DNA of 61,312 bases, from NCBI GenBank assembly GCA_964594545.1, contig CAZQNB010000004.1, positions 6,511-67,822 of the forward strand, given 5' to 3'. The notes beneath the pieces are model-generated. The model saw nothing but the letters and a program-made list of their open reading frames with translations, did no database searches and had not been told where the DNA came from. Each line of letters begins with the position of its first letter. Positions within the stretch are counted from its first letter, which is position 1. Source of the DNA: an uncultured bacterium (GTDB lineage: Bacteria > Chlamydiota > Chlamydiia > Chlamydiales > SM23-39). Positions 14,851-55,857 of this stretch are shown piece after piece. The position numbers were made by a program, and so were the translations under genes.

Positions 14851-16956
14851 ATGTTCAAAAAAGAAACGATCACAGTATCCCTTGGGCACACAACCCTCAC
14901 ATTCGAAACAGGAAAAATCGCTCGCCAAGCCAACGGATCGGTGACCGTTCAGTGCGGAGATACGATTGTCTTTGCCTCTGCCTGCGCATCTGCCAAACCT
15001 CCTGAAGGAGTAGATTTCTTCCCCCTCAGAGTCGATTATCAAGAAAAACTTTCATCAACTGGCCGTACAGCCGGAGGATTCATTAAGAGAGAAGGGAGAC
15101 CTGCAGAGAGAGAAATCCTCACTTGCCGTCTGATCGACCGCCCCCTGCGCCCGATGTTCGAAGAAGGATATTTCAACGAAGTGCAGATCCTCTCCTACGT
15201 ATTTTCCTATGACGGAGTCCATGCACCTGACGTTCTCGCTGTCTGCGCAGCCTCTGCAGCGCTGACCATCTCAGACATTCCTTTAATTAAACCCATTGGA
15301 GCTGTTCGAGTGGGCCGTATTGATGGCAAATTTGTCATCAACCCATCTCATGAAGAGATGAAAAAATCCACCCTCGATCTCGTCTTGGCCGGAACAGAAG
15401 ATGCGATTTTGATGATTGAAGGATTTTGCGACTTCCTTACCGAAGAAGAAGTCATCGAAGCCATTGAAACAGGGCACAAAGCCATTCAAACGATTTGCCA
15501 CGCGTTAAGCAATTGGGCCAAAAAAATTGGACAACCCAAGAAAAAAGACGCTCTCCGCACAATTCCTCAAGAAGTCAATGATGCCGTTCATGCATCTGCC
15601 GCAAACCTTCTCGAGCCTGCTCTTCGCATTTCTGCAAAGCAAGAGAGAGAAAAAATAATTTCTGAGATCAAAGAAAGCGTCACAAAAGCCCTTCTTCCTG
15701 AAGGCGTAGAAACAAAATATTCGAAAGCTGACGTCGCATTGAGCTTCAAAAATCTCCAATCCACTCTCATGCGAAAAATGATCCTCGATGAAAAACGGCG
15801 TATTGACGGTCGTGGATTAAAAGATATTCGCCAAATCGATGTAGAGCAATCCATTTTGCCAAGAACGCACGGAAGTTCTCTTTTCACAAGAGGCGAAACG
15901 CAAGCTCTCGCTGTTTGCACACTCGGCGGAGAGACAAGCGCGCAACGATATGAAGACCTCCACGGAGACGCAAACCAACGCTTTTATCTCCAATATTCCT
16001 TCCCCCCATTTTCTGTTGGCGAAGTAGGAAGAGTTGGGGCTGCAGGAAGACGAGAAATCGGCCACGGAAAACTCGCAGAAAGATCGCTCGCAGCTATCCT
16101 ACCTAAGCAAGAGGTTTTCCCCTATGTAATCCGTCTTGAATCCAACATCACAGAATCCAACGGCTCCTCGTCAATGGCCTCTGTCTGCGGCGGATGCCTT
16201 GCGATGATGGATGCGGGAGTTCCTATTCAGCGTCCGGTTGCAGGAATTGCCATGGGGCTTGTCCTTGAAGGGAATAAACATGCGATTCTCTCCGATATTC
16301 TGGGCGCAGAAGATGCACTTGGAGATATGGATTTTAAAGTCGCTGGAGATGCTAAAGGGATCACAGCTTTCCAGATGGACATCAAAATAGAGGGGATCAC
16401 CCACGCCATCATGCGAGAGGCTTTAGCCCAAGCAAAAGAAGGAAGAACCCATATTTTGAACAAAATGCTCAATGTATGCCCAGCCTTCCGCAGCGAAATG
16501 TCTTCTTACGCGCCGCGCATTGAAACACTCCAAATCAAACCGAGCAAGATCGGCATTGTGATTGGACCTGGCGGAAAACAAATCCGCGCCATTGTTGAAG
16601 AAACAGGCGTTCAGATCGACATCAATGATAGCGGTCTTGTCAGCATTGCGTCAACGAGTGCAGAAGCGATGGCGAAAGCAAAAGCGATCATCGTCAACCT
16701 TACATCTGAAGTAGAGATCGGGAAAACATATAAAGGCCGCATCACATCGATTGTCGCCTTTGGATTTTTCGTAGAAATCTTTGGAAAAGAAGGTCTTTGC
16801 CATATTTCTGAAATTTCAACACAACGAATTCATGACATTCGAGATATCCCTTTTAAAGAAGGTGATATGGTTGAAGTGAAAGTTTTGGATGTCAATGACC
16901 GTGGCCAAATCAAGTTAAGCCATAGAGCGATACTCGAACAACAGCAGCATGCATAA
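14851..16956 (+). CDS. pnp: polyribonucleotide nucleotidyltransferase (PNPase)
   Basis: Two RNase PH domains, a KH domain (IGPGGKQIRAI) and an S1 domain (YKGRITSIVAFGFFVEI). 701 aa. Confidence 0.95.
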   Translation: MFKKETITVSLGHTTLTFETGKIARQANGSVTVQCGDTIVFASACASAKPPEGVDFFPLRVDYQEKLSSTGRTAGGFIKREGRPAEREILTCRLIDRPLRPMFEEGYFNEVQILSYVFSYDGVHAPDVLAVCAASAALTISDIPLIKPIGAVRVGRIDGKFVINPSHEEMKKSTLDLVLAGTEDAILMIEGFCDFLTEEEVIEAIETGHKAIQTICHALSNWAKKIGQPKKKDALRTIPQEVNDAVHASAANLLEPALRISAKQEREKIISEIKESVTKALLPEGVETKYSKADVALSFKNLQSTLMRKMILDEKRRIDGRGLKDIRQIDVEQSILPRTHGSSLFTRGETQALAVCTLGGETSAQRYEDLHGDANQRFYLQYSFPPFSVGEVGRVGAAGRREIGHGKLAERSLAAILPKQEVFPYVIRLESNITESNGSSSMASVCGGCLAMMDAGVPIQRPVAGIAMGLVLEGNKHAILSDILGAEDALGDMDFKVAGDAKGITAFQMDIKIEGITHAIMREALAQAKEGRTHILNKMLNVCPAFRSEMSSYAPRIETLQIKPSKIGIVIGPGGKQIRAIVEETGVQIDINDSGLVSIASTSAEAMAKAKAIIVNLTSEVEIGKTYKGRITSIVAFGFFVEIFGKEGLCHISEISTQRIHDIRDIPFKEGDMVEVKVLDVNDRGQIKLSHRAILEQQQHA

Positions 16957-16973
16957 CTCTTAAGGAAAACCTT

Positions 16974-18785
16974 ATGTCCCGTATCTTATCGAAAGAACTG
17001 ATCAACCATGTTGAAAAGAACGTTCTGGTGCGGGGCTGGTTAAATAATCTGAGATCGTTTGGCAAACTCACCTTTTTGCTCCTCCGGGATAGAACAGGTC
17101 TTTGCCAAATCGTCATAGAAAACAAAGAAGAACTGCAAAAAATTTCTTCTCTTCAACCCGGTTCTATCCTCAGTGTTCGAGGAAAAGCGGTAGCGTCTCA
17201 ATCCGGATCTTTGAAAGTAGAGATTGTAGAGCCCACCATCACGGTTGAAAATCCGATCCGTGAAGTACCTCCTCTTGAGTATTACAAACCGGAAATCCAT
17301 ACGGATCTCGAATTTGTGCTCGACCATAGACCCATTGCGCTTCGCAATCGGGAACTGCAAGCGGTATTCAAAATACAAGCAGAGATTGCTCACGCCTATC
17401 GCCTGTTCATGCACGACGTTATCCATGCATATGAATATTTCGCACCGAACATCCTTGGGGCGTCCTCTGAAGGGGGCTCTGAATTTTTTAATGTGGACTA
17501 TTTTGGGTATCCAGCAACGCTTGCTCAAAGCAGCCAGCTCTATAAACAAATCATGGTTGGCGTAAACGAAAGAGTGTTTGCCCTCATGCCCTTTTTCCGC
17601 GCAGAACCATCGCAAACTTCGCGCCATCTCTCCGAAGGAAAACAATTTGAATTTGAGATGGGGTTTTTTAACGATTGGCATGAGATTCTTGACATTCAAG
17701 AAGCGTGCATAAAATCGATCTTATCTCACCTCCACACCCATGCTAAAACTGAAATTGAAATTCTCGGGAATACAATCATCAAAGCGCCGGAAAATATCCC
17801 CTTCCCTCGCCTCACCTTTGCGCAGGCGCAAGAGCTCTACTATAAGAGAACAGGTATTGATGAAAGAGACGAGCCCGACCTAAGCCCTGCCGCAGAAAGA
17901 GAACTTTGCGCGTGGGCGCTTACAGAAAAAGGGACCGAACTTGTTTTTGTTACAGATTGGAAGACAGAAAAACGGCCCTTTTACGCCTATCCCACACCGG
18001 AAAACCCAAAACTTACCAATACATTCGATCTTCTTTGCGCCGGCACAGAAATTACTTCAGGCGGTCAAAGAAGACACACCTACGAATCGATGATCGAAGG
18101 GATCAAATCCAAAGGGATGGATCCGGCCAATTTCACCGATTATTTGAGCATTTTTAAATATGGGATGCCGGCCCACGGTGGATTTGGAATGGGGCTTGAA
18201 AGGCTCACCATGACGCTTCTCAAACTCAAAAATATCCGCGAAGCATCGCTCTTTCCTTCCGATCCCAAACGCATTGCAGGCAATAAAATTAAGGCGCACA
18301 TCTTTTTTGGCGCGGAAAACATTCGGAATGAAATCATCCGCCTTTGCCACAAAAACACCCTCCCCATCAAACACCAAAAGCACGAAGAGACCCCGACATC
18401 ACAAGCCTCTGCCGAGATTCGGAACACCAAGATGGAAGAGGGCATTAAAGCGCTCATCCTCCGCGGCAAAGGCTCGAAAAAGAACTACCAATTCAACATC
18501 CCGGCCCATCTTAAACTCGATGTGAAAGCCGCATCTGAAATTGTGGGCGAAAAATGTGAGTTTGAAGACCCCGCTGTCATCTTGGAAAGATTCGGCCTCA
18601 AAGTAGGCGGCGTTCCTCCATTTGGGAATCTTCTAAACATCGATAACTATTTTGATGAAGCCATTAAATCTGAGGCCAGAGCCGCATTTAACTGCGGTTT
18701 TTCGACAGAATCGATCATCATGGCGTCTAAAGACCTATTTTCGATCGCCGATCCAAAATGGGGCCATTTCTCAAAGACCCCTTAA
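16974..18785 (+). CDS. aspS: archaeal/eukaryal-type (class IIb) aspartyl-tRNA synthetase fused to a C-terminal YbaK/ProX-like aminoacyl-tRNA deacylase domain
   Basis: OB fold (VLVRGWLNNLRSFGKLTFLLLRDRTG), AQSSQLYKQ, FRAEPSQTSRHLSE, SGGQRRH, GFGMGLERL. After about residue 440: IKALIL...LKVGGVPPFG...AFNCG, which matches the YbaK family pattern (Lys plus GG(V/I)xPxG). Confidence 0.85.
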   Translation: MSRILSKELINHVEKNVLVRGWLNNLRSFGKLTFLLLRDRTGLCQIVIENKEELQKISSLQPGSILSVRGKAVASQSGSLKVEIVEPTITVENPIREVPPLEYYKPEIHTDLEFVLDHRPIALRNRELQAVFKIQAEIAHAYRLFMHDVIHAYEYFAPNILGASSEGGSEFFNVDYFGYPATLAQSSQLYKQIMVGVNERVFALMPFFRAEPSQTSRHLSEGKQFEFEMGFFNDWHEILDIQEACIKSILSHLHTHAKTEIEILGNTIIKAPENIPFPRLTFAQAQELYYKRTGIDERDEPDLSPAAERELCAWALTEKGTELVFVTDWKTEKRPFYAYPTPENPKLTNTFDLLCAGTEITSGGQRRHTYESMIEGIKSKGMDPANFTDYLSIFKYGMPAHGGFGMGLERLTMTLLKLKNIREASLFPSDPKRIAGNKIKAHIFFGAENIRNEIIRLCHKNTLPIKHQKHEETPTSQASAEIRNTKMEEGIKALILRGKGSKKNYQFNIPAHLKLDVKAASEIVGEKCEFEDPAVILERFGLKVGGVPPFGNLLNIDNYFDEAIKSEARAAFNCGFSTESIIMASKDLFSIADPKWGHFSKTP

Positions 18786-18920: not shown

Positions 18921-19562
18921 ATGAAAACAAAAAATATCTTTACCTCGATAGAGACCCCCTATATAGATGCGCAAAGTCTTTTGGTATTATTTCAAACATA
19001 CCAAAAACCTCGTGAAAAAATCCGACGCATGGTCAACAACGGTGAGCTCATTCGATTAAGAAATGGGTTTTACCTAATAGCCGAAAAGATCCAACACGGC
19101 ACTGAAAAGATTATTCCCTATGAACAGGTGGCCAATCTTCTCTACGGCCCCTCTTATGTAAGTCTTGAATGGGCGTTATCATTTTATGGCATGATCCCGG
19201 AGAGAGTCTTCACAGTCACCTCAATGACTCTCGGCAGGCAAAAAGAATTCCATACCCCTGTCGGAGATTTTACCTACTTTCCATTAAGCGCCTCTTGCTA
19301 CCCAATTGGTGTGGAACAAAAAAAATCGACAAGTTCGCTCGGCAATTTTTTAATGGCTAGCAGGGAAAAAGCATTAGCTGACTTAATCCATATTACTTGC
19401 AAAGGTTTAAGCCTAGAAGAGCTTAAAGTAGAATTGATTGAATCGAAGAGGTTGAATATGGAGATCGTACGAGAATTGGACAAAAATCTTCTTAGTGAAA
19501 TTGCAAAAAATTACAGATCGAGATCGGTGAGAAATTTGATCCATTTGATAGGTGTATTATGA
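18921..19562 (+). CDS. abiEi: type IV toxin-antitoxin / abortive infection AbiEi-family antitoxin (transcriptional regulator)
   Basis: The N-terminal IRRMVNNGELIRLRNGFYL pattern is typical of AbiEi. 4-nt overlap (ATGA) with the downstream AbiEii gene. Confidence 0.7.
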   Translation: MKTKNIFTSIETPYIDAQSLLVLFQTYQKPREKIRRMVNNGELIRLRNGFYLIAEKIQHGTEKIIPYEQVANLLYGPSYVSLEWALSFYGMIPERVFTVTSMTLGRQKEFHTPVGDFTYFPLSASCYPIGVEQKKSTSSLGNFLMASREKALADLIHITCKGLSLEELKVELIESKRLNMEIVRELDKNLLSEIAKNYRSRSVRNLIHLIGVL

Positions 19563-20443
19563 GTTCAGAAATAAAAAAGATGTGGAAAGGATTCCCCGAT
19601 ACAATGCCCCAAGCGGATAAAATCCGTGAAATTTTACAACAAACAGCCCTATTGGGACTCTCTCGGCACCGTTTTTTTGAGCATGCCATTTTTTATGGAG
19701 GGACGGCGCTCAGAATCTTATATGGCCTCGATCGATATAGTGAAGATCTTGATTTTTCTTTGCTCAAGCCAAGCGGGCAATTCGATTTTCATCCCTTTCT
19801 TGAAGGGATGCGACTTGAACTTGAGGCCATGGGTTTTAAGCTCAATTATACCAAAAGGGAAAAAAATCAAGAGTCAGGTATTTGGTCTGCCTTCTTAAAA
19901 GCGAATACATTAGAGCTCCTTCTTTCTATTGAAGAAGCTTCGATTACGCGAGGGATCCATCCGGAGCAAAAGATTCAAATCAAGTTGGAAATTGATATAG
20001 ATCCTCCTATATTTGATATGCCCATTGAAACGAAATTGGTCAAAAATCCGGTTCCTTTCTACATCACAACCATGCGCATCATCGATTTGTTTGCCGGTAA
20101 AATGCATGCCGTTCTTTGCAGAGCTTGGCGCAATCGAGTAAAAGGGCGCGATTGGTACGATCTTATTTGGTACATTCAAAGTGGGATTCCGGTCAATCTA
20201 GCGTACTTGCGAGCCAAAATGATACAAACGGGCCATTTGGTTGAAGGGGCCTCATTCAGAGAAAAAGAACTTCATCAGAAATTGGAAGAGAGAATTGATC
20301 AGATCAATTGGGACTTAGCAAAAGCAGACGTATACCCCTTTATCCAAGACAAGCGGGCATTGGATCTTTGGTCAAAAAACTTCTTCCTCGATCTAATCAA
20401 GCACTTGCGTTGGGTGGATGTACCGAAGATACTTCAAGAATAG
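19559..20443 (+). CDS. abiEii: AbiEii/AbiGii-family nucleotidyltransferase toxin
   Basis: FYGGTALRILYGLDRYSEDLDFSL is the DUF1814/AbiEii NTase signature. 294 aa. Confidence 0.8.
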   Translation: MSSEIKKMWKGFPDTMPQADKIREILQQTALLGLSRHRFFEHAIFYGGTALRILYGLDRYSEDLDFSLLKPSGQFDFHPFLEGMRLELEAMGFKLNYTKREKNQESGIWSAFLKANTLELLLSIEEASITRGIHPEQKIQIKLEIDIDPPIFDMPIETKLVKNPVPFYITTMRIIDLFAGKMHAVLCRAWRNRVKGRDWYDLIWYIQSGIPVNLAYLRAKMIQTGHLVEGASFREKELHQKLEERIDQINWDLAKADVYPFIQDKRALDLWSKNFFLDLIKHLRWVDVPKILQE

Positions 20444-21565: not shown

Positions 21566-22072
21566 ATGATCAACTTAAATTATCTTTTACGTTCAGCGCC
21601 AATTCAAACTACTGTTAAGAGAGCGCTATTAGCCAAAACCAAAACATCTGCTCTTGTCAAAACAATTCTTTATGGACAAAATTGGGCTGCGCAACCTCCA
21701 CGGATCCCTTTGTCTCAGCGATTTGAAGGGGCAAAGCAAGGCATCAATACAATTCTTTACGGACAAAACGGGGCTGCACAAAAGCAGGTTCCTGCATCCA
21801 AATCAGAATCAGCCTACGAAATGGCTGTGAGATTCTCTTACGATACGAACAGCTCTAGACTCGAAAAAATCCTCCCGCAGCTTACAGAAGAGCAGAGATT
21901 TGATTTCGCAAAAGAAGCAGTCAAAAAAACAAGTGGAATTACGGACTGCTGCAGTTTCGTAAGATACAAATTAGACAAATACAACCTTAGCGAAGAAAAC
22001 CGTCGAACTCTTCTTCAAGAGCTCGACAGCAAAAGCCGAGGGAACGCCTCAATAGTAGCTAAACAACACTAA
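21566..22072 (+). CDS. hypothetical protein with internal repeat
   Basis: 168-aa ORF with GGAAC 6 nt upstream of the ATG. TILYGQNWAAQ and TILYGQNGAAQ are repeated 29 codons apart. Confidence 0.4.
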   Translation: MINLNYLLRSAPIQTTVKRALLAKTKTSALVKTILYGQNWAAQPPRIPLSQRFEGAKQGINTILYGQNGAAQKQVPASKSESAYEMAVRFSYDTNSSRLEKILPQLTEEQRFDFAKEAVKKTSGITDCCSFVRYKLDKYNLSEENRRTLLQELDSKSRGNASIVAKQH

Positions 22073-24861
22073 CCTAGCTCAGGCTCCAGCCCTTTCCCCT
22101 TCGAAGGAATCGGGGGCAAGGGCGGCGGGGTAATCATTTGTAAATCATCAGCAGCTTTTACTCTGCCCCGCTTTACTCCTGCATCCCAAGTTCCGGCCAT
22201 AATCTCTTTGACATCTATCGCATCTAAAGTTTCAAACTCCATCAACATGTCTGTCATGAGCCTTACTTGCGCTTCATGTGTCTTTAAAATGTCAATTGCG
22301 CCTTTGTGTGCTTCATCGATCAACAATTTAACTTCTGCATCGATCTTCTTCGCTGTTTCGTCTGAGTAGGCTTTTTCACGGTAACTGGACATGCCTAAGT
22401 ATTGACCGGATTCACTTTTCTCATCATATGTGACAAGCCCTAAATTATCGCTCATCCCCCATTCGCACACCATACTGCGAGCAATCTTCGTCGCCTGCAA
22501 GATATCGTGTTGGGCCCCGGACGACATATCGCCCACAAAAAGCTCTTCCGCAGCTCTTCCTCCCATCAAGACAATCAGCTGGTCTAACACCTCTTTCTTC
22601 CAGTAGCTTAAGCGATTTTTCTTCGGCATAAAGTGGGTTGCGCCCAAAGAAAATCCGCGAGGAATAATCGTCACTTTGTCTACAGGATCACTATTTTTCA
22701 CAAGCAGGGCGGTGATCGCATGGCCTGTTTCATGGAAAGCTGTTGTTTTCTTTTCCCCTTCATCCATTTCAAGGCTGCGTCTTTCTTTACCAAAGCGAAC
22801 TTTATCACACGACTCTTTCACTTCACTCTGCGTAACAGCTGACCTTCCTTTACGCGCAGCAAGTAGTGCCGCTTCATTGAGGACGTTTTCCAAATCAGCC
22901 CCTGACGCGCCGGGAGTATTTCGAGCGATATCTTGTAGATTTACAGAAGGGTCAATTTTGATTTTTCGGGCGTGTACTTTTAGAATTTCAAAACGTCCCT
23001 TCACATCCGGGAGCTCCAAAACCACTCTACGATCAAATCTGCCCGGACGAAGGAGCGCTTTATCAAGAACATCAGGACGGTTTGTCGCCGCCATCAAGAT
23101 AACCCCTTCTTTCGTATCAAACCCATCCATCTCGACCAAGAGCTGATTTAACGTCTGCTCTCTTTCATCATGGCCGCCGCCAATGCCTGCGCCTCTATGG
23201 CGCCCTACCGCATCGATCTCATCCATAAAGATGATGCAAGGGGCGTTTTTCTTGGCCTGGTCAAACATGTCCCGGATACGGCTTGCGCCCACACCCACAA
23301 ACATCTCAACGAAATCTGATCCTGAAATAGAAAAGAAGGGACGGTCCGCTTCACCGGCAACCGCTTTGGCAATCAACGTCTTTCCGGTTCCCGGAGAACC
23401 CACAAGCAACACCCCTTTAGGAATGCGCGCGCCCAAAGCCGTAAATTTCTGAGGGTCTTTCAAAAACTCAACAATCTCTTTTAACTCTTCTTTTGCTTCA
23501 TCCGCGCCGGCCACATCTCTGAACGTAATTTTATTTGTCTCTTTTGTCATCAGCCTTGCAGGAGACTTCCCAAAATTCATTGCAGAAGAACCCACACCCC
23601 CCTTCATCTGTCTAGAAAAGACGAACCATAAAAAGAGGATCACCATCACGACAGGGAGCAGGGTCAAAAAATAGCTCAAATAATTAGGAGCCGGTTCTTG
23701 GCTTTTAAAGGTTTTTTCTAAAACTGTATTTCTCGGCTGATCCGGCGCCCGATAGGCAAGCCCTTTATTCGCCTCAAAATTATCCCACTCTTGTTTTGCC
23801 TGAGCAAACCAATAGGTAAATGCGTCAGAATCTTGTTTTTCCAAGCTCTTCGTAGAGAGTTCTTGGTTGTTGAAATACCAAATGACAGAAGCAACTTTTT
23901 GACGCGCCTTATCTAAAAGGACAACATTGGTTTCCAATTCTTGAGAAATTTTGGAAAATTGCTGCAATTCATCAACATAACTTCTCACGCTACGCAAGCT
24001 GCCCAAACGGACGCCATCGCGCTCAATACCTAAATCCCGAATGATGACCGCCACTTGATCGAGAGCTGATCGGTACACTGCAATCTGTTTCTCTAGGGAT
24101 CCGTTCGCAGCCGAAACAACTTGCTGATCTAACGCTTTTAATTCCTGCTTCAAACTCTCTGTTCCAATCCCTAAAACAGGAGAGCGCATCTGCGCAATCA
24201 AATCCCGCAGTTCTTTATAGGCAACATCTACCGAATCAATCGTCGGCATCTGCTGGGCGTTCTGGAGCGTTTTCTGAACCGACGGGAGAGTCACCATTTC
24301 AATAGAAGGAACTTGCTTAATCACGATCGATCCATTGCGGTCGGTCGTATCGTATTGCGTCCCTACAACAACAAAGCCAGAGCGAGAAATCGCCTGACCG
24401 CTAAGCCCTAAATAAAGCTCGGAAGCGTCCTTAACGCTCTTGGCAAGAGAGTCTAATTGAGAAGAAAGACGGGTAGACTCTTCATTTAACTCATGGTTTT
24501 GATTCAAAAGCTCAAGGTATCGATACCGAACCTTGCTTTCATCAGACAGACTATCGCGAAATTTTCCGCCAAAAGTGACTAAATTCTCATTTTGAGCGAT
24601 CTTGTGATTTGCTTCAGGAATTGTCAAATTCAAATTCGTAAGATGCTCAACTTGATGGCTAAAGGAAACGCGCCCTTCCCGATCCGCTGTCAACGACTGA
24701 ACCCCGAAAATCAAAATAACAGCAGCGAGCACTAAAAGAAAAAAACCACCGGGGAATCCCTTTTTCTGTTCTGTTTTCATCGTCCTCAACCACCTTGTTT
24801 TATCGCTTTTAAACTGATTTTTCGCGCCATTGATTAAAGCATCTTTCCTCCTTAATAGCAA
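22069..24861 (-). CDS. ftsH: ATP-dependent zinc metalloprotease FtsH with long extracytoplasmic insert
   Basis: Walker [14 protein letters not shown], Walker [15 protein letters not shown] zinc site. About 340 aa lie between TM1 and TM2. Start uncertain (TTG 24861 or ATG 24780). Confidence 0.95.
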
Positions 24862-27209: not shown

Positions 27210-28261
27210 AACTTTGGGAGCGGTATCTTTTCGGCCTTGTCGCCAAAACATTTCTTTTCCTCCTCGCTTGCATTTTTCTCATCTATACGATCATTGATCT
27301 CTCGATTCACGGTGTTCGCTTTTTTTCTCACGGGGAGATTTTTTGGGTAGATCTGCTCTTCTACTATGTCCACAACTTTGCAAACCACATAGAATTTTTC
27401 TTTCCACTCACCCTTTTGCTCTCTTCTCTCAAAGTGCTTCTCGATCTCAATGCCCATCATGAGCTTGTCGCGCTCCAAATGGCAGGCCTATCGCAAAAAA
27501 AACTGCTCCTCCCCTTTTTTGCTTTTGCCGGGATTTTGACTTTAATCTCGCTTGCCAATTACGAATGGTTTTCTCCTAACTCCCAAGAAATGGCAGACAC
27601 ATTCCGCTCCCAACACAAAAAACGGCACAAAGAACATGCCTCCCGCGTATTTAGCGTGAGCCTTGAAGATGCGACCGAACTTGTCTATCAAGGGATCCAA
27701 GACGGCGAGTTGTTTGACGTTTTTTGGATTAAAAGCAGTAAAGATATTTGGCATATGAAATATCTCAATATCGACGATATTCCAAAGGGGCGCTATATCG
27801 ATCATTTCCAACGAAATTCCAGTAAAAAACTAGAAAAAACCGAAAGCTTTGATCAACTTGCATTCCCCCACCTTATTTTAAACCCCGAATCTTCTATAGA
27901 AACCTTCATCCCCTTTGAAAACAGATCCCTTTCCACCCTTTTTAAACAAGCAGGCAGGAGTTCCTCAGAAAGGGCAAGCGTCTTATGTTATCTCCATTAT
28001 AAACTGGCCACGCCGCTCCTCTCTTTTCTGCTTTTGATCGCAGTGGGGCCGATTGCGATTCGCTATCAACGAGCCAAACCGGTATTTTTAATTGTTGCTC
28101 TTTCTCTTTTTGGTTTGATTGGATTCATGACGATTTTAGATGGGATGTTCATCCTTGGAGAAAACCAAGTCCTCCCAAGTTACCTCACCATCTGGGGCCC
28201 ATTTCTCTTAGGTTTATCTCTTAGCGTGACCACTCCCTCGCCTAAAGGCGAAGGCTTCTAG
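27206..28261 (+). CDS. lptG: LPS export ABC permease LptG (YjgP/YjgQ family); last codons derive from the IS end
   Basis: MKLWERYLFGLVAKTF and the same topology as lptF. The C-terminal PSPKGEGF* overlaps the IS terminal hairpin and the tnpB stop. Confidence 0.75.
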   Translation: MKLWERYLFGLVAKTFLFLLACIFLIYTIIDLSIHGVRFFSHGEIFWVDLLFYYVHNFANHIEFFFPLTLLLSSLKVLLDLNAHHELVALQMAGLSQKKLLLPFFAFAGILTLISLANYEWFSPNSQEMADTFRSQHKKRHKEHASRVFSVSLEDATELVYQGIQDGELFDVFWIKSSKDIWHMKYLNIDDIPKGRYIDHFQRNSSKKLEKTESFDQLAFPHLILNPESSIETFIPFENRSLSTLFKQAGRSSSERASVLCYLHYKLATPLLSFLLLIAVGPIAIRYQRAKPVFLIVALSLFGLIGFMTILDGMFILGENQVLPSYLTIWGPFLLGLSLSVTTPSPKGEGF

Positions 28262-29363
28262 GGATTTCTCCCAAGCCATCTAGTCCGAGGGCTAAAATAT
28301 TTTGCGCTGCGTTGAGATCCCTACTCACTGTGTAACCGCATTGAGAACAAGCGTGATGTCTTTCTGCGAGACTTTTTTCTTCTCGGGATTGACATCGGTT
28401 ACATGTTTGTGTTGTGTAAGCAGGGTTCACCAATCCCAACTTCCTACCAGCTTCTGCCGCTTTGTAGGTAAGGAATTGACGAAACTGATTCCAACTCGCG
28501 TCTGTAATGTTTTTTGCTAGATAAGATCCTTCCACCATTTTCTTGATGTTCAGATCCTCTACGCAAATATATTGATACTGATCAATGATTTTTCTAGATT
28601 CTTTGTGGCAAAAATCCTTTCTTTGGTTTCGGATCTTCTCATGGATTTTTGCAACGGCTTTACCTTTTTTTCGACGTTCTTTAGAGCCTTTTTTTTCTTT
28701 GGCAAATTTTCTTTGCATGACTGCTAAAGCCTTTTGTCCTTTTAGGAAAAATTTAGGATTGGCAATTTCTTGTCCATTAGAAAGCGTAGCAAAATGAGTA
28801 AGCCCGACATCAATGCCGATGGCTTCCTGATTTGAAGGAAGGGGCGTTGTCTTTACTTCACAGGAAAGAGAAAGATCCCACTCCCCTGAGGGAGTTTTTC
28901 TTAAGGTACACGTCTTGATTTCTCCTACGCACTCGCGATGCATCTTGATCCGAATATTGCCAATTTTTGAAAGCCTGATTACTTTACCCACTAAGGCAAA
29001 TCCGCTTTGCGGATAACAAAAGCTGTCATATCTATGGAGCCCTCGAAACCGAGGGAATCCCGGTTTTTCACCGGTTTTGCATCTACGGAAAAATCCCTGA
29101 AATGACTTATCTAAACGATCGACAACATTTTGTAAGACTTGTGAATGAACTTGGGCGAGTGTAGGTCTTTCCTCTTTCAAAAGAGGAAGAAACATGAGTT
29201 GTTGATATTTGGAAAGAGAAACGTCTAAATCGTCATGCGACAATCTGCGCTGCGCAAGCAGTTCATTGTAAAGCCATCTACATTCGGTCAAACAGGCTTC
29301 CAATATCTTTCGTTGACTCTTTGTTGGACAAAGCCTGAATTGAAAAGATTTCCGAACTAACAT
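28242..29363 (-). CDS. tnpB: TnpB (OrfB, RuvC-like RNA-guided nuclease family)
   Basis: FQFRLCPTKSQ N-terminus. RuvC residues present in IGIDVGL, ICVEDLNI and VSRDLNAAQNI. Zinc finger CNRCQS...CSQCGY. Confidence 0.9.
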   Translation of the reverse strand: MLVRKSFQFRLCPTKSQRKILEACLTECRWLYNELLAQRRLSHDDLDVSLSKYQQLMFLPLLKEERPTLAQVHSQVLQNVVDRLDKSFQGFFRRCKTGEKPGFPRFRGLHRYDSFCYPQSGFALVGKVIRLSKIGNIRIKMHRECVGEIKTCTLRKTPSGEWDLSLSCEVKTTPLPSNQEAIGIDVGLTHFATLSNGQEIANPKFFLKGQKALAVMQRKFAKEKKGSKERRKKGKAVAKIHEKIRNQRKDFCHKESRKIIDQYQYICVEDLNIKKMVEGSYLAKNITDASWNQFRQFLTYKAAEAGRKLGLVNPAYTTQTCNRCQSREEKSLAERHHACSQCGYTVSRDLNAAQNILALGLDGLGEIPRSLRL

Positions 29364-54045: not shown

Positions 54046-55857
54046 ATGAAAGCACTTGTGATTTTTCTCTGTACCCTCGCGCAGCTTCAAGCTTCTATTT
54101 TTGATTGGTTTAGTCCTCTTTCCGACAAAGCCAAACGGGCGCAAACCATTCTAGAAGGATTTGATCCAATTGTTGAGAAAGCACTCAAAGATTACCTCAT
54201 CCCGGGAGTTGCCATCGGCGTTGTTGTCGATGGTCATATCGTATATACGAAAGGCTTTGGGTTTCGCGATGTAGAAAAAAAACATCCCATGACCATCGAT
54301 ACGATGCTTCCCATCGGCTCATGCACTAAAGCGTTTACCACATTTGCCATCGCCACTCTCGTTGATGAAGGGCTTCTTCATTGGGACCAAAAGGTCATCG
54401 ATATTCTCCCGGAATTTCGCATTAACGACCCTTACGCTACGCAAAATCTAACGATCAGAGACCTATTGACACACAGATCCGGTTTACCGAGACACGATTT
54501 CATGTGGTATAACTCTAACTTAACAAGAACGCAAGTCATGCAAAGACTGCGCTTCCTCGAACCCTCGTGCAACATCCGCGAAAGATACCAATACAACAAT
54601 TTGATGTATCTTACCGCAGGATATGCAATTGAAAATCTCACAGGAGAAAGCTGGGAAGCGTTAGTCCAAGAAAAAATCTTGCAGCCGCTCAATATGTCCC
54701 ACACCAACTTTTCCATTGCCGACATGCAAAAAACAAATGATTTTGCCTGTCCCTACATAGAAAAAAACGGGAAGATTGAAAAAATGAACTTCCGAGATAT
54801 CTCTCTCATTGGCCCCGCAGGATCGATGAATTCAAGCGTCCGCGACCTCACATCATGGGTACAGATGAATCTCAATGGAGGAGTGCATAAAAACAATTCC
54901 CTTCTCAACCCCGCGCTATTACAAGAAATCCATTCCCCTCAAGTAGTTGTTCCCGGAGCGCCGGAGACAAAAGAGGCGGTTTTATATGCCTATGGCTTGG
55001 GCTGGGGAATCTCATCCTACCGAGGTCAATATTATTTAAGCCATGATGGCGTGTCCGATGGATTCACTTCGACTGTAGGACTTCTCCCCATGCAAGGGAT
55101 TGGAGTCATTGTTCTTGCCAATCGCAATCTCTGCTCATTTCCCCGCATCATCTCGCTTCTACTGATTGATCGCGTTCTTGAATTACCTTTTATCGACTGG
55201 ATTAAAGAAGGTCTTGAAGGAATGCAAAAAATGCAACCCTCGGAATACGCAGATGAACGCAAAGGAGATCCTTTACAAAAAAAGGACACAAAACCCTCTC
55301 ATCCACTCGAAGATTTTGTAGGGACTTTTGAAAATCCCGGATATGGCTCCCTCTCGTTTGAACTAGAAGACGGCAAACTAAAAGCGATTTTTAATGGGGT
55401 CTCTAGTGTATTAGACCATTGGCACTATGATGTATTCAATGTCGTTTCTGAAGATCAACACACCCTTTTTTCGAGAACAGGGACAAAAATGACTTTTCAT
55501 GGGGATCTCCGTGGAGATATTGCCGAAGTTAGCATCCCTTTTGAGCCTGCAGTCGGAGATATCGTCTTCAAAAGAAAAAGAGAAGAGATCCATTCTAACA
55601 CCTCCTATTACAAAAAATTCATCGGCCTCTATGAGATCTACGGCTATACAGTTGAAATCGCAATCCGAAATCACACCTTATGTGGCATCATTCCCGGACA
55701 GCCGATCTATGAGCTTGTCCCGGGCGCTGAAAATGAATTTACCGTAAAATCGATGTCCGGATATAACCTCCGCTTTATCCTGTCTCCGGACGGTCGGGTG
55801 GAAGAAGCTCTCTTCGTTCAACCTTATGGAGCCTTTACCGCAAAACCAAAACGGTGA
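54046..55857 (+). CDS. secreted beta-lactamase-family serine hydrolase with C-terminal extra domain
   Basis: Signal peptide MKALVIFLCTLAQLQA. SxxK (GSCTKAF), YxN (YQYNNLMY). About 200-aa C-terminal beta-rich domain. Confidence 0.8.
   Translation: MKALVIFLCTLAQLQASIFDWFSPLSDKAKRAQTILEGFDPIVEKALKDYLIPGVAIGVVVDGHIVYTKGFGFRDVEKKHPMTIDTMLPIGSCTKAFTTFAIATLVDEGLLHWDQKVIDILPEFRINDPYATQNLTIRDLLTHRSGLPRHDFMWYNSNLTRTQVMQRLRFLEPSCNIRERYQYNNLMYLTAGYAIENLTGESWEALVQEKILQPLNMSHTNFSIADMQKTNDFACPYIEKNGKIEKMNFRDISLIGPAGSMNSSVRDLTSWVQMNLNGGVHKNNSLLNPALLQEIHSPQVVVPGAPETKEAVLYAYGLGWGISSYRGQYYLSHDGVSDGFTSTVGLLPMQGIGVIVLANRNLCSFPRIISLLLIDRVLELPFIDWIKEGLEGMQKMQPSEYADERKGDPLQKKDTKPSHPLEDFVGTFENPGYGSLSFELEDGKLKAIFNGVSSVLDHWHYDVFNVVSEDQHTLFSRTGTKMTFHGDLRGDIAEVSIPFEPAVGDIVFKRKREEIHSNTSYYKKFIGLYEIYGYTVEIAIRNHTLCGIIPGQPIYELVPGAENEFTVKSMSGYNLRFILSPDGRVEEALFVQPYGAFTAKPKR

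What the first reader, a model, noticed from the sequence alone, without database searches (positions are those of the whole stretch)
16974..18785. Archaeal/eukaryal-type AspRS fused to a YbaK-like trans-editing domain
Seen directly:
- Residues 1 to about 435 carry all class IIb AspRS landmarks: the OB fold, QSSQLYKQ, FRAE...RHLSE, GGQRRH and GxGLERL.
- The ORF then continues for about 165 residues. This extension has the hallmarks of the YbaK/ProX/EbsC deacylase fold: the conserved Lys in IKALIL, the GGVPPFG loop and AFNCG.
- The gene sits directly after pnp (17-nt gap).

Established knowledge:
- YbaK-type modules are known as free-standing proteins or as the ProRS INS domain, clearing Cys- or Ala-tRNAPro.
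- Chlamydiae generally rely on a non-discriminating bacterial-type AspRS plus GatCAB.

Inference:
- I do not know of a characterised AspRS with this fusion.
- This enzyme could be a second, specialised or horizontally acquired synthetase with built-in proofreading of an unknown mischarged species.
Basis: partly seen in the sequence, partly recalled or inferred. Interest (0 to 1): 0.65.

Follow-up and report, generated by a model that had tools for sequence, protein, structure and literature searches.

The report
AspRS fused to YeaK-like editing domain
This gene encodes an aspartyl-tRNA synthetase with a complete, apparently active tRNA-proofreading domain on its C-terminus; the combination is standard in environmental chlamydiae and recurs in other tiny-genome symbionts, yet no study of it was found, and AspRS is not known to need proofreading.

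Summary
ORF 16974..18785 (+), 603 aa, is one uninterrupted gene. It has an OB anticodon-binding domain, an archaeal-type class IIb AspRS core, a short conserved linker and a complete PF04073 editing domain.

The interpretation needs three corrections.
- The editing domain is closest to E. coli YeaK/ProXp-ST1, a Ser/Thr-tRNA deacylase, and not to YbaK proper.
- The fusion is not peculiar to this genome. It is the usual AspRS form in at least 80 species-level Chlamydiota genomes, 177 with the unlisted tblastn relatives, and is annotated only as "aspartate--tRNA(Asn) ligase".
- The same deacylase clade is also fused to bacterial-type AspRS, with or without the GAD domain, in DPANN archaea and CPR bacteria. 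When free-standing in DPANN it usually lies within 4.5 kb of aspS or asnS.

This repeated fusion and linkage argues that the domain works with AspRS on Asp/Asn-tRNA. The catalytic Lys, the GxxPP loop and purifying selection argue that it is active. The substrate cannot be read from sequence. Candidates are Ser/Thr on tRNAAsp/Asn, or Asp-tRNAAsn that escaped GatCAB. I found no paper describing this fusion. Verdict: real, and a new variant of a known kind. Moderately high interest.

The parts
16974..18785 (+). Whole aspS-edit fusion ORF (603 aa plus stop codon)
   Evidence: Same architecture in at least 120 homologues and 80 genome loci. Junction spanned without indels by independent assemblies.
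16962..16966 (+). AAGGA Shine-Dalgarno-like motif, 7 nt upstream of the ATG, inside the 17-nt gap after pnp
   Evidence: Read directly from the sequence. No promoter or terminator signal above chance between pnp and aspS. Inference: co-transcription with rpsO-pnp.
17022..17240 (+). N-terminal OB-fold anticodon-binding domain (residues 17-89)
   Evidence: PF01336, 50.7 bits against a cut-off of 27.
17310..18263 (+). Class IIb catalytic core (residues 113-430) with motifs 2 and 3 and the QSSQ Asp-binding motif; no GAD insertion
   Evidence: PF00152, 227 bits. NF003483, 442.5 bits against a cut-off of 353. Best PDB match 1n9w/3kfu, the non-discriminating archaeal-type AspRS2.
18282..18311 (+). 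Short basic linker (residues 437-446, NKIKAHIFFG) between the end of the AspRS core (FPSDPKRIAG) and helix 1 of the editing domain
   Evidence: Free-standing homologues start aligning at about residue 447-452. Residues 436-450 show 81% mean pairwise identity among the fusions, higher than the editing domain. AF2 pLDDT is below 50 for residues 426-445.
18312..18782 (+). Complete YeaK/ProXp-ST1-like aminoacyl-tRNA editing domain (residues 447-603)
   Evidence: PF04073, 58.8 bits. Domain model pLDDT 96.7, pTM 0.91. Foldseek TM 0.77-0.84 to the free-standing deacylases 2cx5, 1wdv, 1dbu, 1vki, 2dxa and 3op6. Closest characterised family is YeaK.
18447..18449 (+). Codon of K492, aligned with the catalytic Lys of the superfamily (K46 of H. 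influenzae YbaK)
   Evidence: Present in 99% of 131 clade members. Invariant in alignments A1, A2 and A3. Aligned with the Lys of YbaK, YeaK and 2cx5.
18606..18626 (+). GGVPPFG loop (residues 545-551), the GxxxP substrate/oxyanion loop of the fold
   Evidence: G545 98%, P548 92%, P549 100%, G551 94% conserved in the clade.
18687..18698 (+). FNCG motif (residues 572-575), a clade-conserved pocket strand
   Evidence: F572 95%, N573 80%, G575 93% conserved. Shared with E. coli YeaK, which has FNAG.
14851..16956 (+). pnp (polynucleotide phosphorylase), upstream neighbour and probable operon partner
   Evidence: TIGR03591, 974.7 bits. pnp lies directly upstream on the same strand in 34 of the 70 related loci that have enough upstream sequence.

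Best explanation
The gene encodes a bifunctional enzyme. Its archaeal-type class IIb AspRS body is probably non-discriminating and feeds GatCAB. A short conserved linker tethers this body to a complete, catalytically competent aminoacyl-tRNA deacylase of the YeaK/ProXp-ST1 branch of the INS (YbaK) superfamily.

Proposed mechanism (inferred):
- After aminoacyl transfer, the 3' end of the tRNA bound to, or just released from, the AspRS dimer is sampled by the tethered deacylase.
- The deacylase hydrolyses a wrong aminoacyl ester using K492 and the G545-G551 loop.
- It thereby acts as a quality-control step dedicated to the Asp/Asn-tRNA branch.

Shown: domain identities, fold, conservation of the catalytic residues, purifying selection, and repeated fusion or gene linkage of this clade with aspS.

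Inferred: that the domain is active, that it acts on AspRS products, and which ester it removes. My ranking for the substrate is a small hydroxylated residue such as Ser or Thr on tRNAAsp/tRNAAsn (as for YeaK), or Asp-tRNAAsn that has not been handed to GatCAB.
For: Domains:
- Domain identities.
- The editing domain is full length relative to 150-165-aa free-standing proteins.
- Its model has pLDDT 96.7 and matches only YbaK/ProX/INS structures.

Likely activity:
- All clade-conserved residues are present: H470, T475, S476, R483, K492, G545, P548, P549, F550, G551, D561, F572, N573, G575, S580, D587.
- Among 79 Chlamydiota fusions, median dN/dS is 0.11 for the editing domain, 0.07 for the core and 0.19 for the OB domain.

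Functional link to AspRS:
- The same clade is fused to the C-terminus of three AspRS body types. These are archaeal-type (P0127, P0131, P0241, P0251), bacterial-type with GAD (P0177, P0209) and bacterial-type without GAD (P0132, P0146). No fusion to AsnRS or LysRS was seen.
- The fusions occur in Chlamydiota, Nanoarchaeota/Woesearchaeota and Candidatus Dojkabacteria.
- Five of six free-standing members sampled on long contigs lie within 4.5 kb of a class IIb synthetase gene. One cluster reads aspS-SET-edit...asnS with gatB nearby.
- One fusion sits 3 kb from gatC-gatA. Another sits 1.2 kb from an AsnRS-like gene.

Closest characterised family: E. coli YeaK, reported as a Ser/Thr-tRNA deacylase (PMC11295145).

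Tolerance of the fusion site: an AspRS-GatC C-terminal fusion is a curated NCBIfam family, NF009460.
Against: - AspRS is not known to need amino-acid proofreading. Bacterial AspRSs tested in vitro made no misacylated species (PMC6523644).
- No assay exists for any member of this clade, so the activity and the substrate are inference.
- The sampled DPANN neighbourhoods are partly syntenic with each other, so they represent about two independent lineages, not five.
- One free-standing member, from Patescibacteria, has no synthetase nearby.
- The full-length AF2 model has low confidence in the linker and part of the core (pTM 0.51). The geometry of any cis-editing path is therefore unknown.
- E. 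coli yeaK is not annotated next to aspS, so linkage is not a property of the whole YeaK-like family.
Confidence: 0.6

Rival explanations
1. Generic trans-editing factor riding on a housekeeping enzyme. The domain would be a broad-specificity Ser/Thr-tRNA deacylase like YeaK, clearing errors of other synthetases (ThrRS, AlaRS, LysRS, ValRS). Fusion to AspRS would only ensure co-expression or proximity to tRNA, with no special relation to Asp/Asn-tRNA.
For: The closest characterised relative is YeaK/ProXp-ST1, described as having broad tRNA specificity (PMC11295145). No residue signature separates fused from free-standing members. In small genomes, fusions can arise by loss of intergenic DNA.
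Against: The partner is always AspRS. Three different AspRS body types in three distant phyla carry the fusion, and none of the fusions found involves AsnRS, LysRS or any other synthetase. Free-standing members also cluster with aspS/asnS.
Confidence: 0.2
2. Non-catalytic accessory domain. The YbaK fold would be retained as a tRNA-binding or protein-docking module, for example to hold tRNAAsn or to recruit GatCAB in a transamidosome, without hydrolysing anything.
For: Appended domains of other synthetases act as tRNA-binding aids, for example the Yqey-like domain of Deinococcus GlnRS (PMC1865053). The linker is basic and strongly conserved. Some fusions sit near gat genes.
Against: The catalytic Lys and the GxxPP loop are invariant or nearly so across fused and free members. 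A pure binding module would not be expected to keep the whole pocket.
Confidence: 0.1
3. Artefact: two adjacent genes (aspS and a ybaK-like gene) joined by a sequencing frameshift or a chimeric assembly.
For: None found for this window. In one related genome (Candidatus Dojkabacteria CP129478.1) the fused gene is instead broken into three ORFs, which shows that frameshifts do occur in such assemblies.
Against: The reading frame is uninterrupted in at least 120 homologues and 80 genomes. The identical protein appears in two independent assemblies. Contigs of three runs cross the junction with no indels. The linker is under strong purifying selection.
Confidence: 0.01

Closest known systems
E. 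coli YeaK (ProXp-ST1), a free-standing Ser/Thr-tRNA deacylase of the INS superfamily
   Same: Same fold. Shared motifs are EIRGT...GAKAL with the catalytic Lys, PPF in the loop, and FNAG...S. It is the best profile match among characterised families.
   Different: YeaK is a single-domain protein and is not annotated next to aspS. Identity to the window domain is only 29%. YeaK has KC where the clade has TS (T475/S476), and PPFS where the clade has PPFG. The window's clade is not YeaK's nearest cluster: the Chlamydiota fusion representative P0122 ranks 92nd of 140 for YeaK. It may correspond to one of the uncharacterised clusters ProXp-8 or ProXp-9, which I could not test.
ProRS INS domain and the ProXp-ala-ProRS N-terminal fusions of protists
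   Same: An INS-superfamily deacylase covalently joined to a class II synthetase, proofreading that enzyme's own product (PMC11295145 and PMC11286415).
   Different: The partner here is AspRS, not ProRS. The domain is C-terminal, neither inserted nor N-terminal. The subfamily is different. The error being corrected is unknown.
T. thermophilus AspRS2 (1n9w, 3kfu), a non-discriminating archaeal-type AspRS of the transamidosome
   Same: Closest solved relative of residues 3-434: 309 bits, about 35% identity. It is an archaeal-type body in a bacterium.
   Different: AspRS2 ends after the core (422 aa) and has no editing domain.
AspRS-GatC fusion (NCBIfam NF009460)
   Same: A curated family in which a partner that acts on Asp-tRNAAsn is fused to the C-terminus of AspRS.
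   Different: The body is bacterial-type. The appended module is an amidotransferase subunit, not a deacylase.
H. pylori GluRS2, which hydrolyses excess Glu-tRNAGln
   Same: A conceptual precedent for removing surplus misacylated intermediate of the indirect pathway at the synthetase itself (PMC3241645).
   Different: The hydrolysis is attributed to the synthetase itself, with no separate editing domain. It also concerns the Gln branch, not the Asn branch.
Legionella lpg1207 (PDB 3op6), an uncharacterised YbaK-fold protein
   Same: Best solved-structure match to the clade profile: 108 bits, E 4e-30.
   Different: It is free-standing with no known function, and it lacks the conserved Arg at the position of R483.

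Membership tests
Class IIb aspartyl-tRNA synthetase, archaeal/eukaryal type | N-terminal OB anticodon-binding domain plus class II core with motifs 2 and 3 and the Asp-binding QSxQ motif | tested here: met
   PF01336 and PF00152 score above their cut-offs. The motifs were read in the translation.
Class IIb aspartyl-tRNA synthetase, archaeal/eukaryal type | Scores above the curated cut-off of the archaeal-type model and lacks the bacterial GAD insertion | tested here: met
   NF003483 scores 442.5 against 353. The bacterial models NF001750 and TIGR00459 score only 159-163 against cut-offs of 443 and 374. There is no PF02938 hit.
Non-discriminating AspRS (charges tRNAAsp and tRNAAsn) | Charges tRNAAsn. 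Sequence proxies are His at the position of T. kodakarensis W26 and Pro at the position of K85 (positions recalled from memory). | tested here: inconclusive
   The query has an invariant N24 at the W26/His position, and the L1 loop region does not align cleanly. The best PDB relative is the non-discriminating AspRS2. TIGR00458 aspS_nondisc scores 354, just below its cut-off of 368.4. GatB is a core gene in 37 Chlamydiales genomes (PMC3899948). Charging itself is not testable here.
INS / YbaK superfamily (PF04073 tRNA_edit) | The YbaK fold | tested here: met
   Model pLDDT 96.7. All 37 significant Foldseek hits belong to this fold, TM up to 0.84.
INS / YbaK superfamily (PF04073 tRNA_edit) | Conserved catalytic Lys and GxxxP loop | tested here: met
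   K492 and G545-G-V-P-P-F-G551 align with the equivalent residues of YbaK, 2cx5 and YeaK. Both are conserved in the clade.
YbaK proper (Cys-tRNAPro deacylase, TIGR00011 / NF007951) | Score above the equivalog cut-off | tested here: not met
   TIGR00011 scores 34.1 against 153.25. NF007951 scores 19.9 against 243.
YeaK / ProXp-ST1 | Closest characterised family by profile comparison | tested here: met
   hhalign E 8.4e-32 to YeaK against 2.8e-15 to YbaK. The clade HMM scores YeaK 134.9, 3op6 115.3, ProXp-x 77.7, the two YbaK sequences 73.5-75.9 and 1wdv 71.9 bits.
YeaK / ProXp-ST1 | Orthology to YeaK, that is, falling in the same cluster rather than in ProXp-ST2, ProXp-7, ProXp-8 or ProXp-9 | tested here: inconclusive
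   No reference sequences for ProXp-ST2, -7, -8 or -9 were available. The window's clade is not YeaK's nearest cluster. Only a neighbour-joining tree could be built.
YeaK / ProXp-ST1 | Ser/Thr-tRNA deacylase activity | not testable with these tools
   Requires biochemical assays.
YeaK / ProXp-ST1 | Single-domain, free-standing protein | tested here: not met
   Here the domain is the C-terminal part of a 603-aa synthetase.

The most novel reading that the evidence does not exclude
This YeaK-like clade would be a dedicated Asx-tRNA surveillance module: the first proofreading domain of a class IIb AspRS. It would recognise the tRNA acceptor stem (for example U1-A72 of tRNAAsn against G1-C72 of tRNAAsp). 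It would then hydrolyse Asp-tRNAAsn that has not been captured by GatCAB, or, in organisms that also have AsnRS, Asp-tRNAAsn made by a relaxed AspRS. That would be editing of a tRNA-selection error rather than an amino-acid-selection error. It appears to have become fixed, by fusion or tight linkage, in three groups generally known for small genomes and host- or partner-dependent lifestyles: environmental Chlamydiota, DPANN and CPR.
Probability: 0.2. Interest if true: 0.85.

Novelty: new variant of a known kind. Interest (0 to 1): 0.62.

Why it matters
To my knowledge, AspRS is counted among the synthetases that work without proofreading, and a 2024 review treats free-standing INS-superfamily deacylases as single-domain proteins. 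Here a complete deacylase has become attached to, or genetically linked with, AspRS in three distant groups that are generally known for small genomes and host- or partner-dependent lifestyles. That pattern implies an unrecognised error, or an unrecognised control point, in making Asp-tRNA and Asn-tRNA.

If the substrate is Asp-tRNAAsn, this would be a new way of protecting the genetic code in organisms that use the indirect Asn pathway. If the substrate is Ser or Thr on tRNAAsp/Asn, it would reveal a fidelity problem of class IIb AspRS that has not been described.

The question is directly testable with recombinant protein. It would also assign a function to a large, unannotated clade of "YbaK/EbsC family" proteins. 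For annotation, hundreds of database entries named only "aspartate--tRNA(Asn) ligase" omit a whole enzymatic domain.

Tried and rejected
- A single-sequence PDB search of the domain pointed weakly to ProXp-x (2cx5, E 4.5e-6) and YbaK. This misled because YeaK has no solved structure. Profile searches and a direct comparison with E. coli YeaK corrected it.
- The full-length AF2 model was too poor to judge how the editing domain sits relative to the active site. It has pTM 0.51, with residues 153-228 and 426-445 below pLDDT 50. Its Foldseek hits only re-found AspRS.
- Discriminating versus non-discriminating status from signature residues was inconclusive.
- A search for residues that separate fused from free-standing editing domains found only weak differences of a phylogenetic kind.
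- The promoter and terminator scan around rpsO-pnp-aspS gave counts at the chance level.
- The window contains no tRNA genes.
- A search for a second class IIb synthetase, a free YbaK-like ORF or GatCAB found none in the window or the 80 Chlamydiota loci. This covers only about 10 kb on each side.
- I tried to use the Chlamydiales pangenome paper to learn whether environmental chlamydiae keep a bacterial-type AspRS. AspRS is absent from its core list, but so are LysRS, ProRS and ThrRS, so the absence is uninformative. The supplementary FASTA is truncated just before the AspRS sequence.
- The Liu et al. 2015 paper and the Kuzmishin Nagy et al. 2020 review were not available in the library.
- The frameshift or chimera explanation was rejected.
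Full report
**1. The observation**

The ORF at 16974..18785 (+) is real. It starts at ATG, encodes 603 codons and ends at TAA. It begins 17 nt after the stop codon of a gene that NCBIfam identifies as pnp (TIGR03591, 974.7 bits). An AAGGA motif lies 7 nt upstream of the ATG.

Pfam finds three domains above their gathering scores:
- PF01336, OB anticodon-binding domain, residues 17-89.
- PF00152, class II D/K/N core, residues 113-430, 227 bits.
- PF04073, tRNA_edit, residues 470-588, 58.8 bits against a cut-off of 25.5.

NCBIfam's archaeal-type AspRS model NF003483 scores 442.5 against a cut-off of 353 over residues 2-434. The bacterial-type AspRS models and the AsnRS and LysRS models fall far below their cut-offs. 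The closest solved structure of the body is T. thermophilus AspRS2, the non-discriminating archaeal-type enzyme of the transamidosome (1n9w/3kfu, E 4e-91).

**2. The fusion is not an artefact**

- The best 120 database homologues (74-86% identity, about 600 aa) all carry the same three Pfam domains.
- A scan of one genome per GTDB species found 177 relatives. The best 80 are all full length at 69-85% identity.
- The identical protein is called in two independent Logan assemblies.
- Contigs from three wastewater-metagenome runs cross the core/editing junction with no insertions or deletions.
- Among 79 orthologous fusions, median dN/dS is 0.07 for the core, 0.11 for the editing domain and 0.19 for the OB domain. 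The editing domain is therefore under purifying selection comparable to the rest of the enzyme.

**3. Anatomy of the C-terminal part**

The AspRS body ends with FPSDPKRIAG at about residue 436. Free-standing homologues of the editing domain (150-165 aa) start aligning at about residue 447-452 and run to the C-terminus. The appended module is thus a whole deacylase, not a fragment.

The linker is only about 10 residues long (NKIKAHIFFG). It is basic and is more conserved than the domain it tethers: 81% against 67% mean pairwise identity. This suggests a defined docking geometry.

Modelled alone with a diverse alignment, the domain gives pLDDT 96.7 and pTM 0.91. All 37 significant PDB matches are YbaK/ProX/INS-fold proteins. 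The free-standing deacylases match at TM 0.77-0.84, the ProRS INS domains somewhat lower.

The full-length model is poor in the linker and part of the core (pTM 0.51). The relative position of the two active sites is therefore unknown.

**4. Which kind of editing domain**

The domain is not YbaK proper. TIGR00011 scores 34 against a cut-off of 153.

An exhaustive search with the domain found 578 representative clusters at E up to 1e-3. These share a characteristic motif set, in window numbering: H470, T475, S476, A480, R483, G490, K492, G545, P548, P549, F550, G551, D561, F572, N573, G575, S580 and D587. The window protein has all of them.

I fetched E. coli yeaK and ybaK from MG1655 and compared them with the domain and with the clade profile:
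- The domain is 29% identical to YeaK (E 9e-16) and 24% identical to YbaK (E 3e-10).
- The clade profile matches YeaK at hhalign E 8e-32 and YbaK at 3e-15.
- A clade HMM scores YeaK 134.9, the uncharacterised Legionella protein 3op6 115.3, ProXp-x (2cx5) 77.7, the two YbaK sequences 73.5-75.9 and 1wdv 71.9 bits.

YeaK is ProXp-ST1, described as a Ser/Thr-tRNA deacylase with broad tRNA specificity (PMC11295145).

The window's sub-clade is not YeaK's nearest cluster. It could correspond to one of the uncharacterised clusters ProXp-8 or ProXp-9. I could not test this because the defining review is not in the library.

**5. Distribution, and the main new point**

In Chlamydiota the fusion is the common form. 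The listed loci include records labelled Parachlamydiales, Parachlamydiaceae, Rhabdochlamydiaceae and Simkania. All are annotated simply as "aspartate--tRNA(Asn) ligase" or "nondiscriminating aspartyl-tRNA synthetase".

Outside Chlamydiota, the same deacylase clade is fused to the C-terminus of other AspRS bodies:
- Bacterial-type AspRS with the GAD insertion: P0177 and P0209, 744-748 aa.
- Bacterial-type AspRS lacking GAD: P0132 and P0146, 625-627 aa.
- Further archaeal-type AspRS: P0127, P0131, P0241 and P0251.

No fusion to AsnRS, LysRS or any other synthetase was seen. Two unrelated architectures did turn up, a triple tandem of the domain and a GmrSD_N fusion. Source names place the bacterial-type fusions in Nanoarchaeota, Woesearchaeota and Candidatus Dojkabacteria.

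Free-standing members are named YbaK/EbsC or Ala-tRNA(Pro) deacylase. They come from Nanoarchaeota, Woesearchaeota, Patescibacteria and Planctomycetes.

I looked at the neighbourhoods of six free-standing members on long contigs, chosen only for contig length. Five lie within 4.5 kb of a class IIb synthetase gene:
- Three are near a bacterial-type aspS.
- One sits in the cluster aspS-SET-edit...asnS, with gatB nearby.
- One lies 1.1 kb from a 433-aa class IIb gene.
- The sixth, from Patescibacteria, has none within 6 kb.

Two fusion loci add to this. One sits 3 kb from gatC-gatA. Another sits 1.2 kb from an AsnRS-like gene.

The DPANN neighbourhoods are partly syntenic with each other, so they count as roughly two independent lineages. 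Even so, a genome of about 1 Mb with two or three class IIb synthetase genes gives a chance proximity of only a few percent per lineage (my own rough estimate). Fusion to three different AspRS body types cannot be inherited from one event. Taken together, this is a classical fusion-plus-neighbourhood signal that the clade works with AspRS or on tRNAAsp/tRNAAsn.

**6. How it most likely works**

Shown:
- A complete deacylase fold with the superfamily's Lys (K492) and the GxxPP loop.
- The domain is selectively maintained, and is tethered by a short conserved linker to the C-terminus of an AspRS.
- An NCBIfam family of AspRS-GatC fusions (NF009460) shows that this end of AspRS tolerates a partner that acts on the aminoacylated 3' end.

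Inferred:
- The domain hydrolyses a wrong aminoacyl ester on a tRNA that AspRS has just charged.
- It does so either by movement of the CCA end while the tRNA body stays bound (as in ProRS INS), or by recapture immediately after release.

The substrate cannot be read from sequence.
- By homology the default is a small hydroxylated residue (Ser or Thr).
- By context the attractive alternative is Asp-tRNAAsn that has escaped GatCAB. GatB is a core gene in 37 Chlamydiales genomes (PMC3899948).
- The literature already shows that organisms protect themselves against the misacylated intermediates. H. pylori ND-AspRS releases Asp-tRNAAsn slowly (PMC3367201). H. pylori GluRS2 hydrolyses excess Glu-tRNAGln (PMC3241645).
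- INS-family deacylases are known to read acceptor-stem elements (PMC11295145). Such elements could in principle distinguish tRNAAsn from tRNAAsp.

Against any amino-acid editing need, bacterial AspRSs tested in vitro produced no misacylated species (PMC6523644).

My estimates:
- About 0.6 that this is an active deacylase functionally coupled to AspRS.
- About 0.2 that it is a generic Ser/Thr editor merely hitch-hiking.
- About 0.1 that it is a non-catalytic tRNA- or GatCAB-docking module.
- About 0.01 that it is an artefact.
- About 0.2 for the specific Asp-tRNAAsn reading, which falls within the first category.

**7. Comparison with what is known, and novelty**

The parts are known: archaeal-type AspRS in bacteria, INS-superfamily deacylases, and synthetase-editing fusions for ProRS. 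The combination is not described in any paper I could search. A 2024 review states that INS-superfamily members other than the ProRS INS domain are single-domain proteins; its exceptions are the ProXp-ala-ProRS fusions and the plant C-terminal domain.

The architecture is visible in databases and is widespread, so the bare fusion is not a discovery. What is new is threefold:
- The domain is assigned to the YeaK-like branch.
- It recurs on all AspRS body types.
- It is linked to aspS/asnS even when free-standing.

I rate it a new variant of a known kind, with interest about 0.6.

**8. What remains open**

- Is this AspRS the only one in the genome?
- Is AsnRS absent?
- Is the enzyme non-discriminating? 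The signature residues were inconclusive.

None of these could be settled. Only the 61-kb window and 10-kb flanks of related loci were accessible, and none of them contains a second class IIb synthetase, a free YbaK-like gene or GatCAB.

Noticed in passing
window 18921-20443 (+): Directly downstream of aspS lies a two-gene pair whose ORFs overlap by 4 nt. The first is a 213-aa AbiEi-like antitoxin (NF047376, 52 bits, below its cut-off of 150). The second is a 294-aa ORF with no NCBIfam hit, possibly an AbiEii-type toxin. Neither has a relative in the 80 related Chlamydiota loci, so this looks like a strain-specific insertion.
   Followed up: partly
window 28242-29363 (-): A 373-aa TnpB-family RNA-guided endonuclease (NF040570, 315 bits; IS200/IS605 type) lies next to the lptF/lptG-like genes.
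   Followed up: no
window 22069-24861 (-): The FtsH homologue is 930 aa. The FtsH model matches only from residue 300, leaving an unexplained N-terminal extension of about 300 residues.
   Followed up: no
window 54046-55857 (+): A 603-aa serine-hydrolase / class C beta-lactamase-fold protein (101 bits against a cut-off of 415). It is more likely a penicillin-binding or esterase-type protein than a beta-lactamase. About 240 C-terminal residues (after about residue 360) are unassigned.
   Followed up: no
window 18282-18326 (residues 437-451): The linker between the AspRS body and the editing domain is more conserved among the Chlamydiota fusions than the editing domain itself (81% against 67% mean pairwise identity). 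It is rich in basic residues. This suggests a structural or tRNA-contacting role rather than a passive tether.
   Followed up: partly
L103 4949-7206 (Candidatus Dojkabacteria CP129478.1): In a complete 1.04-Mb CPR genome the AspRS-GAD-edit gene is split into three consecutive ORFs (84, 228 and 401 aa, the last two overlapping). Its syntenic counterpart in L083 (P0177) is one 748-aa ORF. The split is either a set of assembly frameshifts or a decaying gene. Several other 370-420-aa 'GAD + half core + edit' database proteins may have the same origin.
   Followed up: partly
L092 1-8400 (Nanoarchaeia MAG, GCA_035289885.1): Gene cluster gatB ... aspS (archaeal-type, 439 aa) - SET-domain protein - free-standing YeaK-like deacylase - 99-aa ORF ... 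asnS (433 aa). The SET-domain gene lies between aspS and the deacylase gene, with 1-nt gaps on both sides, and is unexplained.
   Followed up: partly
P0162 (448 aa) and P0158 (286 aa): Other architectures of the same deacylase clade: a protein made of three tandem tRNA_edit domains, and a GmrSD_N (restriction-endonuclease N-terminal domain) fused to tRNA_edit.
   Followed up: no
L004 9989-12034: In one related Chlamydiota MAG the orthologous open frame (stop to stop) is 682 codons. The editing-domain match stops at about residue 582 of that frame. This may be a frameshifted or altered C-terminus.
   Followed up: no
L059 (CAMBTZ010000016.1): A MAG labelled 'Chlamydia trachomatis' carries the environmental-type fused AspRS at 72% identity. 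Other loci carrying the fused gene are labelled Verrucomicrobiota, Verrucomicrobiae or Legionella. These look like mislabelled or misbinned environmental Chlamydiota.
   Followed up: no
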